Source: a virus (lineage: Duplodnaviria; Heunggongvirae; Uroviricota; Caudoviricetes). From it: a stretch of DNA of 14,110 nt. The stretch lies in the IMG/VR virus record IMGVR_UViG_2541047932_000008. The stretch is one strand, 5' to 3'. Below, piece after piece: positions 6,696 through 14,110 of this stretch. The translations under genes and the position numbers were made by a program. Below the pieces are notes generated by a model. It saw nothing but the letters and a program-made list of their open reading frames with translations. It did not search any database and was not told the DNA's origin. The first letter of the stretch is position 1. Each line of letters starts with the position of its first letter.

Positions 6696-6851
6696 TTACT
6701 CCTCAGGTTCGTAAGCTGTGAAGACAGCGACCTCCGTCTGGCCGGTTCGGATTCGTACCTCGCAGAGGTCTTTCCTCGTTACCAGTGCCGTCACAATGAC
6801 GGTTAAACAGATGACGATCAGGGCGATTAGCATCGCCTTTTGCTGCTTCAT
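6696..6851 (-). CDS. hokD: Hok/Gef-family type I toxin (HokD/RelF-like, 51 aa)
   Basis: MKQQKAMLIALIVICLTVIVTALVTRKDLCEVRIRTGQTEVAVFTAYEPEE, which matches HokD as I recall it. SD AAGGAG 7 nt before ATG 6851. The ORF track's 70-aa version (from 6908) is an in-frame upstream extension. Confidence 0.85.
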   Translation of the reverse strand: MKQQKAMLIALIVICLTVIVTALVTRKDLCEVRIRTGQTEVAVFTAYEPEE

Positions 6852-7026
6852 AGCCTGCTTCTCCTTGCCTTTCGGCACGTAAGAGGCTAACCTACGTGTG
6901 TAGAGCATAGATATGGCCTCAGATTAATGTTAAGCGTCTTGCCGGACGCGTAATGTTAACTGGGGCTTTTCTCTATCTGCCGTTGGTGTTCATGCCCGAG
7001 GCAGATAGCCTCAAGCACCCGCAGCA

Positions 7027-12730: not shown

Positions 12731-13156
12731 TCAATGTACTGCCACAGCATTTCCTGCCGGGCCACCACGGTTCATCTGATTGAAACCGGCGATTGCCACT
12801 GCGACAAAATCATCAGCGTCTCTCACCAGTCGCTCCCGCGTCTCCACCAGCTCCCGAAAATAAGCTGAACTGTGGCTGCGCATTCTGGCCACCAGCAAAG
12901 GTGGCATTGCCTTTTCGATCGCTGGTAACAACGCCTGAATTTTTTCAACTGCATCAGGGGTGTCTTTCTCTACCCAGCGGAAAATTTTCTGTGTATTGCG
13001 AGCCAGGGCTTCCGGATGGCTGTCGTCATACAGTTCAGGAAACGTCATACCCAACTCAAAATAAGCCTGGGTTATTCCAGCTGCTGGAACTTTTTCGCCA
13101 TCAGGACGCGCCCAGGCATTCATCGCCATGCGGATGTGTTCATGCTTGATTTTCAT
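12731..13156 (-). CDS. YdaT-like protein (CII-position gene of Rac-type immunity regions)
   Basis: 141 aa, MKIKHEHIRMAMNAWARPDG.... GGAG lies 8 nt before ATG 13156. The start overlaps the 3' end of the Cro-like gene by 17 nt. Confidence 0.7.
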   Translation of the reverse strand: MKIKHEHIRMAMNAWARPDGEKVPAAGITQAYFELGMTFPELYDDSHPEALARNTQKIFRWVEKDTPDAVEKIQALLPAIEKAMPPLLVARMRSHSSAYFRELVETRERLVRDADDFVAVAIAGFNQMNRGGPAGNAVAVH

Positions 13157-13415
13157 GAATCAACTCCGGTGTATTTGGTGTGTTAGCCTTATCTCCAGCA
13201 GGCAACCCGTCAGTTGGATTCGGGTATAAATCTGGTCGCAATTCATGAGGAGTAACCCCAGTTGCAATATAAATTTGACGAACCCGTTCTCCCGTCGGCA
13301 CTCGACCATTGTATTCATTTGCCCATTTGTGTATTTGAGATGGCCAAGCCCCTATTGCACGCCCTAGCGGACGAATACCACCAGCAATCTTTATTGCTTT
13401 GTCCAATGCTGTCAT
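13140..13415 (-). CDS. Cro-like / YdaS-like small HTH regulator
   Basis: 91 aa, MTALDKAIKIAGGIRPLGRAIGAWPSQIHKWANE.... GGAGG lies 5 nt before ATG 13415. Divergent from the repressor gene. Confidence 0.75.
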   Translation of the reverse strand: MTALDKAIKIAGGIRPLGRAIGAWPSQIHKWANEYNGRVPTGERVRQIYIATGVTPHELRPDLYPNPTDGLPAGDKANTPNTPELIHENQA

Positions 13416-13443: not shown

Positions 13444-13472
13444 ATTGTTCACTTAAAACGAACACAAGTCAA
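13444..13472 (-). promoter_or_regulatory. PR-like early promoter with embedded operator (GTTC-N9-GAAC)
   Basis: Minus strand: TTGACT-tgtGTTCgttttaagtG-AACAAT. The operator dyad (plus 13447-13463) fills the spacer and overlaps the -10. Confidence 0.45.
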
Positions 13473-13484
13473 CACCTCGAGGAA

Positions 13485-13512
13485 TTGTTAGTGTTCACTG
13501 AACGGTTATAAT
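13485..13512 (+). promoter_or_regulatory. Repressor-gene promoter (PRM-like), predicted leaderless transcript
   Basis: TTGTTA (13485-13490), 16-nt spacer containing the palindrome GTTCACTGAAC (13493-13503), then consensus TATAAT (13507-13512). The ATG at 13519 lies 7 nt after the -10 and has no SD. Confidence 0.5.
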
Positions 13513-13518
13513 TGCCAA

Positions 13519-13908
13519 ATGGACATGAGAAAAAAGCAATACGACACCCCGCTAGCAGAAAGGTTAGATACGATCTCTCAACAGCATCATTTAAGTGGTT
13601 CAGATTTAGCGCGTATCGCTGGTGTAGGTCGTTCATCAGTCAACGCATGGAAAAAAAGAGGAACAATCAGTAAAGATTCCGCAGCCAAAATTGCAGAAGC
13701 CACAAACGTTTCCCTTTCTTGGCTACTGACAGGGAAAGAAGAGACAAATAGAGAGGCGCTTGATGATGACGAGAAGGCCCTGCTTGATGTTTACAGAAAC
13801 CTGCCACCTGTAGAACGTAGAAATATGCTGGCAGCTTTTCAAATGCGACTCCAAAAACTGACCGAATTTTACTCAGAATACGTCGACCCAATAACACGAC
13901 AAAAATAA
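13519..13908 (+). CDS. Prophage repressor, XRE-family HTH, no peptidase domain
   Basis: 129 aa. HTH segment LSGSDLARIAGVGRSSVNAWKKRGTISKDSAAKIAEATNVSLSWLLTG. No Ser/Lys peptidase motifs, and too short for a LexA-like C-terminal domain. Confidence 0.85.
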   Translation: MDMRKKQYDTPLAERLDTISQQHHLSGSDLARIAGVGRSSVNAWKKRGTISKDSAAKIAEATNVSLSWLLTGKEETNREALDDDEKALLDVYRNLPPVERRNMLAAFQMRLQKLTEFYSEYVDPITRQK

Positions 13909-13929
13909 TTCTTTATTTTACAGAATCAT

Positions 13930-13958
13930 ACCGCCGCAAGGCGGTTTTTTTTTTTTTT
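13930..13958 (+). terminator. Rho-independent terminator after the repressor gene
   Basis: ACCGCC-GCAA-GGCGGT followed by 14 consecutive T. Confidence 0.8.
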
Positions 13959-13972
13959 GCGTATTCATCATG

Positions 13973-14001
13973 TTGACTTTCGTTCACCTAGAGAGAACAA
14001 T
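13973..14001 (+). promoter_or_regulatory. PL-like promoter with embedded operator, mirror of the PR-like module
   Basis: TTGACT-ttcGTTCacctagagaG-AACAAT: the same 29-bp layout (TTGACT, 3 nt, GTTC-N9-GAAC overlapping AACAAT) as the minus-strand promoter at 13444-13472. Confidence 0.4.
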
Positions 14002-14110
14002 GTATTCCATCAAAGCACAACGGTGCGACAGGTCTTAGTTCCGCTACCCCGGCGTTAAGGGGAAACAGAGGATTTCTCAGTGGGCGAAGTCAAACATCAG
14101 AATGGAAGGC

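What the first reader, a model, noticed from the sequence alone, without database searches (positions are those of the whole stretch)
13444..14001. Two near-identical operator-promoter modules flanking the repressor gene
The minus-strand promoter for the Cro-like operon (13444-13472) and a plus-strand promoter downstream of the repressor terminator (13973-14001) share one 29-bp layout: TTGACT, 3 nt, a GTTC-N9-GAAC dyad, then AACAAT, with the dyad filling the spacer and overlapping the -10. This is an OR/OL-like arrangement. The repressor's own promoter carries a different dyad, GTTCACTGAAC (GTTC-N3-GAAC). Two half-site spacings suggest either two binding modes of one repressor or separate sites for the repressor and the Cro-like protein.
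Basis: seen in the sequence. Interest (0 to 1): 0.6.

Follow-up and report, generated by a model that had tools for sequence, protein, structure and literature searches.

The report
Prophage immunity switch: matched PR/PL operators
The two matching 29-bp elements are real and are almost certainly the "right" and "left" promoter-operators of a lambda-like prophage on/off switch in E. coli: an uncharacterised immunity type of a well-known kind of system, not a new mechanism.

Summary
TTGACT-N3-GTTC-N9-GAAC-AAT occurs exactly twice, at 13444-13472 (-) and 13973-14001 (+); 0.01 matches are expected by chance.

The window is the early region of an E. coli lambdoid prophage. It holds a 129-aa DicA/Gifsy-like short repressor, a divergent YdaS (Cro-like) and YdaT (CII-like) operon, and a terminator. 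A second promoter follows, whose leader is homologous to Qin dicBp.

In ten orthologous modules from five lineages (E. coli, Salmonella, Lelliottia, Klebsiella aerogenes and one unattributed read-archive assembly), both -35 and -10 hexamers and the GTTC/GAAC arms are invariant, while most of the N9 centre drifts. In a heteroimmune sister group the arms change together (GTTA..TAAC) in the same layout. This supports the OR/OL reading.

The "different" GTTC-N3-GAAC dyad at the repressor's promoter occurs only in the E. coli lineage. What is conserved there is one half-site, GTGTTCACT. It sits in the same register as at PR and PL, with the right arm replaced by a consensus -10. The repressor's promoter is therefore a third, half-operator copy, and its mRNA is probably leaderless.

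The closest studied systems are CP-933P PaaR2/YdaS/YdaT and Qin DicA/dicBp. No binding or transcription data exist for this immunity type. Verdict: new member of a known kind, modest interest.

The parts
13444..13472 (-). PR-like promoter-operator module: -35 TTGACT (13472-13467), 17-bp spacer, -10 AACAAT (13449-13444). It drives the YdaS(Cro-like)-YdaT-replication operon.
   Evidence: The hexamers are invariant in 10 orthologous modules. An SD GGAGG and the ATG at 13415 lie downstream.
13447..13463 (.). Right operator: 17-bp dyad GTTC-ACTTAAAAC-GAAC. It fills the PR spacer and overlaps the -10.
   Evidence: The arms are invariant and 5 of 9 centre positions vary across 5 lineages. The arms become GTTA/TAAC in the heteroimmune group.
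13485..13512 (+). PRM-like promoter of the repressor: TTGTTA, 16-bp spacer, TATAAT. The -10 ends 6 nt before the ATG at 13519 and there is no SD, so the mRNA is probably leaderless.
   Evidence: The TATAAT-N6-ATG spacing is conserved in all lineages. paaR2 and lambda cI are leaderless (PMC8630535).
13491..13499 (+). Conserved single half-site GTGTTCACT in the PRM spacer. It sits in the same register as the left arm at PR and PL; the right-arm position is TTAT of the -10.
   Evidence: Invariant in 10 of 10 modules while its flanks vary. It covaries to GTTA/ATTA-GCC in the sister group.
13493..13503 (.). Its right arm is specific to the E. coli lineage.
   Evidence: Present in all 6 E. coli variants and absent in L007, L025, L033 and L034.
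13519..13908 (+). Immunity repressor, 129 aa: an N-terminal 5-helix HTH (Phage_CI_repr/HTH_3) plus a C-terminal two-helix hairpin. It has no S24 peptidase domain.
13140..13415 (-). Cro-like regulator, 91 aa, YdaS family.
   Evidence: Its recognition helix co-segregates with operator type.
12731..13156 (-). YdaT (CII-like) gene.
   Evidence: annotated as YdaT family in relatives.
13146..13163 (.). Perfect YdaT-type inverted repeat TTGATTTTCATGAATCAA at the ydaS/ydaT junction.
   Evidence: 0 mismatches. It has the same motif and position as OM of CP-933P (PMC9986795).
13930..13955 (+). Intrinsic terminator of the repressor transcript (ACCGCCGCAAGGCGGT plus a T-run).
   Evidence: The hairpin is kept, with changed loops and stems, in relatives.
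13963..13968 (+). Degenerate half-site-like element ATTCAT, 4 nt upstream of the PL -35.
   Evidence: A TCA core is invariant in the GTTC group. The same place holds GATAGC(C/T) in the GTTAGC group. Suggestive only.
13973..14001 (+). PL-like promoter-operator module: -35 TTGACT, 17-bp spacer, -10 AACAAT. It is the counterpart of Qin dicBp.
   Evidence: In relatives the downstream genes are DUF1391/ydfA, dicB, kil and exo.
13982..13998 (.). Left operator: 17-bp dyad GTTC-ACCTAGAGA-GAAC.
14008..14075 (+). Conserved 5' leader of the PL transcript, with the hairpin CCCC-GGCGTTAA-GGGG just before the SD. It is shared with heteroimmune relatives and with the Qin dicBp leader.

Best explanation
The two modules are the lytic early promoters, PR-like and PL-like, of a lambdoid prophage immunity region. 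Each has one 17-bp operator (TGTTC-N9-GAACA) built into its spacer and -10.

Inferred mechanism. A dimer, or dimer of dimers, of the 129-aa HTH repressor binds each dyad and blocks RNA polymerase. This silences the YdaS/YdaT/replication operon to the left and the ydfA-dicB-kil-exo type operon to the right. The repressor's own promoter uses the same layout, but only the left half-site is kept and the right arm is a consensus TATAAT. That makes it a strong promoter with a weak operator: it would stay on in the lysogen and be shut off only at high repressor levels or by the Cro-like protein. Its transcript probably starts at the ATG (leaderless).

No other conserved element exists in the 103-bp intergenic region, so the Cro-like YdaS protein most likely uses the same sites, as in lambda and CP-933P. 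The repressor has no autocleavage domain, so induction is probably by an antirepressor, as for DicA/Rem and the Gifsy repressors.

Shown: the sequence, its statistics, its conservation and covariation, and the gene context. Inferred: binding, occlusion, autoregulation, the leaderless start and the induction route.
For: - The pattern matches exactly twice; 0.01 matches are expected.
- Context: the repressor matches Phage_CI_repr/HTH_3, the neighbours match YdaS and YdaT, and replication genes follow. Relatives carry DUF1391-dicB-kil-exonuclease after the second module.
- The leader after the second module is homologous to the Qin dicBp/ydfA leader. dicBp is a demonstrated DicA-repressed promoter (PMC10448788).
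- Phylogenetic footprint: in 10 modules from 5 lineages (repressors 77-100% identical), the -35, the -10 and the GTTC/GAAC arms are invariant at both sites. 7 (PL) and 5 (PR) of the 9 centre positions vary, as do the flanks.
- Covariation: heteroimmune relatives (repressors 65-74% identical) keep the layout -35/N3/arm/N9/arm/-10 but with GTTA..TAAC arms. The PRM half-site and the element upstream of the PL -35 change in step.
- Precedent: in CP-933P, PR and PL share identical -35/-10 elements and similar operators. PaaR2 and YdaS footprints overlap both promoters, and both proteins repress PL (PMC8630535).
- Architecture: the AlphaFold model (pLDDT 82) shows an HTH domain plus a C-terminal helical hairpin. 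The best full-length PDB match is SinR, a tetrameric repressor inactivated by an antirepressor (PMC3163267).
- No S24 domain is detected. Short non-cleavable repressors are induced by antirepressors (PMC3121763; PMC10448788).
Against: - There are no binding or transcription-start data for this immunity type. A search of the held papers for the operator sequences found nothing relevant.
- The promoter scan alone is not significant: 3 sites found against 1.9 expected.
- Each region has only one full dyad, unlike the three or four sites of lambda, Qin and CP-933P. Cooperative or looping behaviour is therefore unproven.
- Repressor helix 3 (SRSSVNAW) is identical in L033, which has GTTC-type operators, and in L026/L036, which have GTTAGC-type operators. 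The Cro-like helix differs between these groups. The inner operator positions therefore track Cro at least as well as the repressor, and the repressor's specificity determinants are not identified.
- No antirepressor gene or convincing LexA box was found in the window.
Confidence: 0.8

Rival explanations
1. The GTTC-N3-GAAC palindrome at the repressor's promoter is a distinct functional operator. It would be either a second binding mode of the repressor (as phage 186 CI has two site types; recalled, not checked here) or a site specific to the Cro-like protein.
For: - The 11-bp palindrome GTTCA-C-TGAAC is perfect and invariant in all six E. coli variants, which are 87-98% identical.
- Heteroimmune relatives carry a different compact palindrome, TTAGCC-N3-GGCTTA, in their PRM spacers.
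- The best sequence match in the PDB is 186 CI.
Against: - The right arm GAAC is lost in four independent orthologous lineages that keep the N9 operators and the same Cro-like helix.
- The whole PRM block is invariant in E. coli, so its conservation there says nothing specific about the palindrome.
- The compact palindromes of the other groups are offset by 3 bp relative to this one. They are partly explained by a conserved GG(C)TTATAAT promoter context.
Confidence: 0.12
2. The N9 dyads are recognised only by the Cro-like YdaS protein. The 129-aa repressor acts through other sequences.
For: The inner operator positions (CAC versus AGC) co-segregate with the Cro-like recognition helix (PSQIHKW versus PSSLNKW). 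Repressor helix 3 can be identical across the two operator types.
Against: - No other conserved element exists in the intergenic or PL regions for the repressor to use.
- In every studied relative (lambda, CP-933P, Qin) the repressor binds dyads that overlap PR and PL.
- Repressor residues outside helix 3 do differ between the groups: positions 22-25, and position 45 (K/R versus Y/F).
Confidence: 0.05
3. The resemblance is only that of two similar sigma-70 promoters or a local duplication, and the dyad has no operator function.
For: The promoter-like hits are not enriched over shuffles.
Against: - The arms lie in the spacer, which promoters do not constrain. They are nevertheless invariant across 5 lineages while neighbouring spacer positions vary.
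- The arms covary with immunity group.
- The N9 centres of the two copies differ, so this is not a recent duplication.
Confidence: 0.03

Closest known systems
CP-933P immunity switch of E. coli O157:H7 (PaaR2 / YdaS / YdaT; PR933P, PRM933P, PL933P)
   Same: - A divergent short repressor and a ydaS-ydaT operon.
- PR and PL share the same -35/-10 elements and similar operators.
- The repressor mRNA is leaderless.
- A YdaT inverted repeat TTGATT-N6-AATCAA lies at the ydaS/ydaT junction (PMC8630535, PMC9986795).
   Different: - The operator sequence differs: the GTTTAGTAA consensus there, TGTTC-N9-GAACA here.
- CP-933P has four evenly spaced 18-bp palindromes at OR and three sites at OL. This window has one full dyad plus one half-site per region.
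- In CP-933P paaR2 is followed by the paaA2-parE2 toxin-antitoxin genes. Here a terminator and PL follow directly.
- Similarity of this repressor to PaaR2 was not tested, because no PaaR2 sequence was available.
Qin prophage dicA / dicC / dicBp (E. coli K-12)
   Same: - A short non-cleavable repressor with the same two-part architecture (25% identity over 110 aa).
- A promoter after the repressor gene drives ydfA(DUF1391)...dicB, with a homologous leader.
- The operator half-site TTGTTAG resembles TTGTTCA, and it lies in the spacer of dicBp (PMC3441716).
   Different: - The Cro analogue is YdaS-type, not DicC (no similarity).
- The DicA operator Oc has N8 spacing and lies downstream of the putative dicC -10.
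- The NCBIfam DicA score is 37 bits against a cut-off of 101.
Phage lambda OR/OL (CI, Cro, PR, PRM, PL)
   Same: - The gene order repressor - terminator - PL on one side, with divergent PRM/PR on the other.
- 17-bp dyads inside promoters.
- -35 hexamers TTGACT/TTGACA (from my own knowledge of lambda).
- A leaderless repressor mRNA.
   Different: - The sites are not tripartite.
- The repressor lacks the S24 autocleavage domain.
- The full dyad is centred about 64 bp upstream of the inferred PRM start, so CI-OR2-type activation is not obviously possible.
Gifsy-1/-2/-3 repressors (GfoR, GtgR, GfhR) of Salmonella
   Same: These are short (about 136 aa) non-cleaved lambdoid repressors inactivated by antirepressors, and homologues are reported to be widespread in E. 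coli (PMC3121763).
   Different: No antirepressor was identified in this window. Direct sequence comparison with the Gifsy repressors was not done.
Bacillus subtilis SinR / SinI
   Same: - SinR is the best full-length structural match (Foldseek E 4.6e-4): an HTH domain plus a two-helix oligomerisation hook.
- SinR binds GTTCTYT motifs, best as the inverted repeat GTTCTCTAAAGAGAAC, and single motifs 10-fold more weakly (PMC3163267). Compare GTTCTCTTTAAGTGAAC here.
   Different: SinR is not a phage system. Its spacing is N8, not N9. TM-scores are only 0.42-0.51. The similar half-site may be coincidence.

Membership tests
Lambdoid immunity region (OR/OL switch) | Divergent repressor and cro-type genes separated by a short region that holds back-to-back promoters | tested here: met
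   Repressor at 13519 (+) and YdaS-type gene at 13415 (-), 103 bp apart. PR and PRM were found there.
Lambdoid immunity region (OR/OL switch) | The same operator sequence at PR and at a second early promoter (PL) beyond the repressor gene | tested here: met
   Two exact 29-bp matches, 0.01 expected. Conserved in 5 lineages and covarying in the heteroimmune group.
Lambdoid immunity region (OR/OL switch) | Three tandem operators in each control region | tested here: not met
   Each region has one full dyad plus one half-site. No third site appears with up to 2 mismatches, and the sequence between the sites is not conserved.
Lambdoid immunity region (OR/OL switch) | Repressor and Cro bind the operators and repress PR/PL | not testable with these tools
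   Needs EMSA, footprinting or reporter assays.
Lambda CI / LexA-type cleavable repressors | C-terminal S24 peptidase domain with an Ala-Gly cleavage site | tested here: not met
   Pfam finds only HTH families. The model shows a 2-helix C-terminal hairpin.
DicA subfamily (NCBIfam NF007257) | Score above the curated cut-off | tested here: not met
   37.2 bits against a cut-off of 101. BLASTP to DicA gives 25% identity, E 3e-6. It is a distant homologue only.
Qin-type dicBp operon control | Promoter after the repressor gene drives ydfA(DUF1391)...dicB, with the conserved leader | tested here: met
   The leader is homologous to Qin's. DUF1391 and dicB lie downstream in L001-L005. In this window the first gene has been replaced at a mosaic joint near 14066.
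CP-933P-type switch (PaaR2/YdaS/YdaT) | YdaS (PF15943) and YdaT (PF06254) genes in the PR operon | tested here: met
   39.0 bits (cut-off 30) and 39.6 bits (cut-off 21).
CP-933P-type switch (PaaR2/YdaS/YdaT) | YdaT operator TTGATT-N6-AATCAA at the end of ydaS | tested here: met
   Perfect match at 13146-13163 (PMC9986795).
CP-933P-type switch (PaaR2/YdaS/YdaT) | Repressor co-transcribed with the paaA2-parE2 toxin-antitoxin genes; operators with the GTTTAGTAA consensus | tested here: not met
   A terminator and PL follow the repressor directly. The operator arms are GTTC/GAAC.
Antirepressor-induced short repressors (Gifsy/DicA class) | Inactivation by a cognate antirepressor | not tested
   No antirepressor was recognised among the window ORFs scanned. 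The only LexA-box-like hit has 2 mismatches and is at chance level.

The most novel reading that the evidence does not exclude
This family may run a lambda-type bistable switch with a minimal operator set. Each lytic promoter has one full dyad. The repressor promoter and the region upstream of PL each have a single half-site in a fixed register. All four 'TTCAC' half-sites point the same way on the chromosome. A SinR-like repressor tetramer could use one dimer on a dyad and the other on a half-site, or could bridge OR and OL, which lie 535-539 bp apart. Specificity between sister immunity groups might then be set mainly by the Cro-like protein and by repressor residues outside the recognition helix.
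Probability: 0.2. Interest if true: 0.45.

Novelty: new member of a known kind. Interest (0 to 1): 0.3.

Why it matters
This immunity type is present in 82 of 5,426 complete E. coli genomes, including many O157:H7 strains, and in no sequenced phage of the collection searched. Knowing its operators predicts which prophages are homo- or heteroimmune. It also predicts which promoter controls the dicB/kil-type cell-division inhibitors and the recombination genes downstream.

The comparative table of three promoters built on one layout, in two specificity groups, gives a compact set of natural operator variants. These could be used to dissect how short DicA/Gifsy-like repressors and YdaS-type Cro proteins read DNA. 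Nothing here overturns the lambda paradigm.

Tried and rejected
- Rfam at gathering threshold found only sok, and nothing in the control regions or the leader.
- A search of the held papers for the operator sequences returned only unrelated primer matches.
- The genome-contig scan with a repressor alignment gave only 18 loci, and just one (L007) was of the same specificity. The useful relatives came from the look-up of encoding contigs instead.
- I tested GTTA-N9-GAAC (13487-13503) as a third full operator. It is a 2-mismatch hit at chance level, and its left arm is not conserved in relatives (TTGAGG, TTGTGG). Rejected in favour of a half-site.
- Klebsiella phage Kp4882-1 (L006) and Raoultella (L008) have TTAGCC-type repeats in a different arrangement. 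They could not be aligned to this layout, so they were not used.
- A second YdaT-like repeat at 13912-13929 has 2 mismatches and is not conserved in E. coli variants. Treated as chance.
- The LexA-box search gave one 2-mismatch hit at chance level.
- RNAalifold on the PL leader gave only weak support, with 2 pairs showing compensatory change.
It was rerun with alignment A2.

Full report
**1. The observation**

The pattern TTGACT-N3-GTTC-N9-GAAC-AAT matches exactly at 13444-13472 on the minus strand and at 13973-14001 on the plus strand. It matches nowhere else in the 14.1-kb window, even with two mismatches. Shuffles give 0.01 matches on average. The bare dyad GTTC-N9-GAAC is also unique to these two places.

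Both elements are called as sigma-70-like promoters: TTGACT, a 17-bp spacer, then AACAAT. A third promoter, TTGTTA-16-TATAAT at 13485-13512, faces the 129-aa ORF. A G+C-rich hairpin plus T-run at 13930-13955 separates that ORF from the second module. The description is accurate.

**2. What the locus is**

- The 129-aa protein matches Phage_CI_repr and HTH_3. It matches DicA weakly (37 bits against a cut-off of 101), and its best PDB sequence hit is phage 186 CI. It has no peptidase domain.
- The divergent 91-aa gene is YdaS family and the next gene is YdaT family.
- Next come a replication-organiser-like gene, a DnaC-like ATPase, DUF1627, DUF977, hok/sok, DUF968, a Q-like DUF1133 protein and a methylase.

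This is the early region of a lambdoid prophage of the Rac/Qin/CP-933P kind. The immunity module is found in 82 of 5,426 complete E. coli genomes at 87-98.5% identity, including many O157:H7 strains. It is found in no phage record of the collection searched.

In those genomes the second module is followed by DUF1391 (ydfA), dicB, kil and an exonuclease. That is the lambda PL-operon position. Its transcribed leader is homologous to the leader of Qin dicBp. dicBp is a known DicA-repressed promoter (PMC10448788).

**3. Comparative test of the modules**

I compared ten orthologous modules from five lineages whose repressors are 77-100% identical:

- six E. coli variants;
- Lelliottia (L007);
- Salmonella (L025);
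- K. aerogenes (L033);
- an unattributed Logan read-archive assembly (L034).

At both sites the -35, the GTTC and GAAC arms and the AAT of the -10 are invariant. 7 (PL) and 5 (PR) of the 9 centre positions vary, as do the flanks. The distance between the two dyads stays at 535-539 bp. This is the footprint expected of a protein-binding dyad embedded in a promoter.

A heteroimmune sister group has repressors 65-74% identical to this one (L026, L031, L036). It keeps the identical layout but with GTTA...TAAC arms at PR. The Cro-like proteins fall into the same two groups, with recognition helices PSQIHKW and PSSLNKW.

**4. The repressor's own promoter**

Laid out in the same way, PRM reads TTGTTA-GT-GTTC-ACTGAACGG-TTAT-AAT. 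The left arm and its distance to the last bases of the -10 are the same as at PR and PL. The right arm is replaced by TTAT, which makes a consensus TATAAT.

Across the five lineages GTGTTCACT and GGTTATAATTGC are invariant. The N3 partner GAAC is present only in E. coli; the others have GCGA, GAGA, GAGT or ACGA. The sister group has GTTA/ATTA-GCC at the same position.

PRM is therefore best read as a third copy of the module that carries a half-operator. The GTTC-N3-GAAC palindrome is a lineage-specific extra, not a conserved second kind of site.

The -10 ends six bases before the ATG in every lineage and there is no Shine-Dalgarno sequence. This predicts a leaderless mRNA, as shown for lambda cI and paaR2 (PMC8630535).

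A degenerate half-site-like element (ATTCAT here, GATAGC in the sister group) lies just upstream of the PL -35. I treat it as suggestive only.

**5. Mechanism**

The AlphaFold model (pLDDT 82) has a five-helix HTH domain (residues 11-71), a linker and a C-terminal two-helix hairpin. The best full-length structural match is SinR. SinR is a tetramer formed through such a hairpin, and SinI inactivates it by binding there. SinR binds GTTCTYT motifs best as an inverted repeat and binds single motifs ten-fold more weakly (PMC3163267).

By analogy I infer the following:

- Repressor oligomers bind the two full dyads tightly and occlude RNA polymerase at PR and PL.
- They bind the PRM half-site weakly.
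- The Cro-like protein uses the same elements, because nothing else in the intergenic region is conserved. In CP-933P the PaaR2 and YdaS footprints overlap both promoters, and both proteins repress PL.
- With no cleavage domain, induction is probably by an antirepressor, as for DicA/Rem and the Gifsy repressors. None was found in this window.

None of the binding steps has been shown for this immunity type.

One caution applies. Repressor helix 3 is identical in L033 (GTTC-type operators) and in L026/L036 (GTTAGC-type operators), whereas the Cro-like helix differs. It is therefore open which protein reads the inner operator positions. Repressor residues at positions 22-25 and 45 do differ between the groups.

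**6. Comparison with known systems**

The arrangement works like lambda OR/OL. It is closest to two studied prophage switches.

- CP-933P has the same YdaS/YdaT genes, the same YdaT operator at the ydaS/ydaT junction (a perfect TTGATTTTCATGAATCAA at 13146-13163), PR and PL with identical hexamers, and a leaderless repressor mRNA.
- Qin dicA/dicBp has a distantly homologous repressor, a homologous PL leader, and a related half-site, TTGTTAG.

It differs from both in three ways. The operator sequence is different. Each region has one full dyad plus a half-site, not three or four sites. Compared with CP-933P, there is no toxin-antitoxin pair after the repressor gene.

**7. Verdict**

The OR/OL interpretation is well supported by context, conservation and covariation. 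The idea of two half-site spacings is not supported. This is an uncharacterised immunity specificity within a known family, of modest interest.

Noticed in passing
window 13146-13163: A perfect inverted repeat TTGATTTTCATGAATCAA overlaps the end of the YdaS-like gene and the start of ydaT. It is identical in motif and position to the high-affinity YdaT operator OM of CP-933P. This suggests a PRE-type control of repressor establishment here too.
   Followed up: partly
window 14008-14075 (and L038 636-706, L025 2490-2552, L031 2486-2556): The roughly 65-nt leader of the PL transcript is conserved across heteroimmune prophages and in Qin dicBp. A small hairpin (CCCC-GGCGTTAA-GGGG, 14050-14065) lies just before the ribosome-binding site, and 2 stem pairs show compensatory changes. 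Rfam has no match and the function is unknown.
   Followed up: partly
window ~14066-14110: There is a mosaic joint right after the leader hairpin. All 82 E. coli relatives continue into a DUF1391/ydfA gene. This window continues instead into a GTG-start ORF shared with PPompW and vB_EcoS-type phages (matches begin at about 14029).
   Followed up: partly
window 13447-13463 and 13982-13998: The operator centres are asymmetric (GTTC-AC-TTAAA-GA-GAAC) and keep the same orientation on the plus strand at both sites, although the promoters are inverted (70 direct versus 44 inverted matches over 10 loci). All 'TTCAC' half-sites, including the PRM one and the one upstream of PL, point the same way.
   Followed up: partly
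L033 versus L026/L036 repressor genes (locus coordinates 2001-2390): The repressor recognition helix SRSSVNAW is identical in modules with GTTC-type and GTTAGC-type operators, while the Cro-like helix differs. The repressor's specificity determinants must lie elsewhere, or the two groups may not be heteroimmune at the repressor level.
   Followed up: no
window 6846-7020: A hok/sok type I toxin-antitoxin locus: the sok RNA matches Rfam RF01794 at 111.7 bits on the minus strand. It lies inside the early right operon region.
   Followed up: no
window 13447-13463 compared with the SinR operator: In the PR reading direction the operator in relatives reads GTTCTCTTTAAGTGAAC. Its half-site equals the B. 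subtilis SinR consensus GTTCTYT, and SinR is also the best full-length fold match of the repressor. This may be coincidence or a shared recognition mode.
   Followed up: partly
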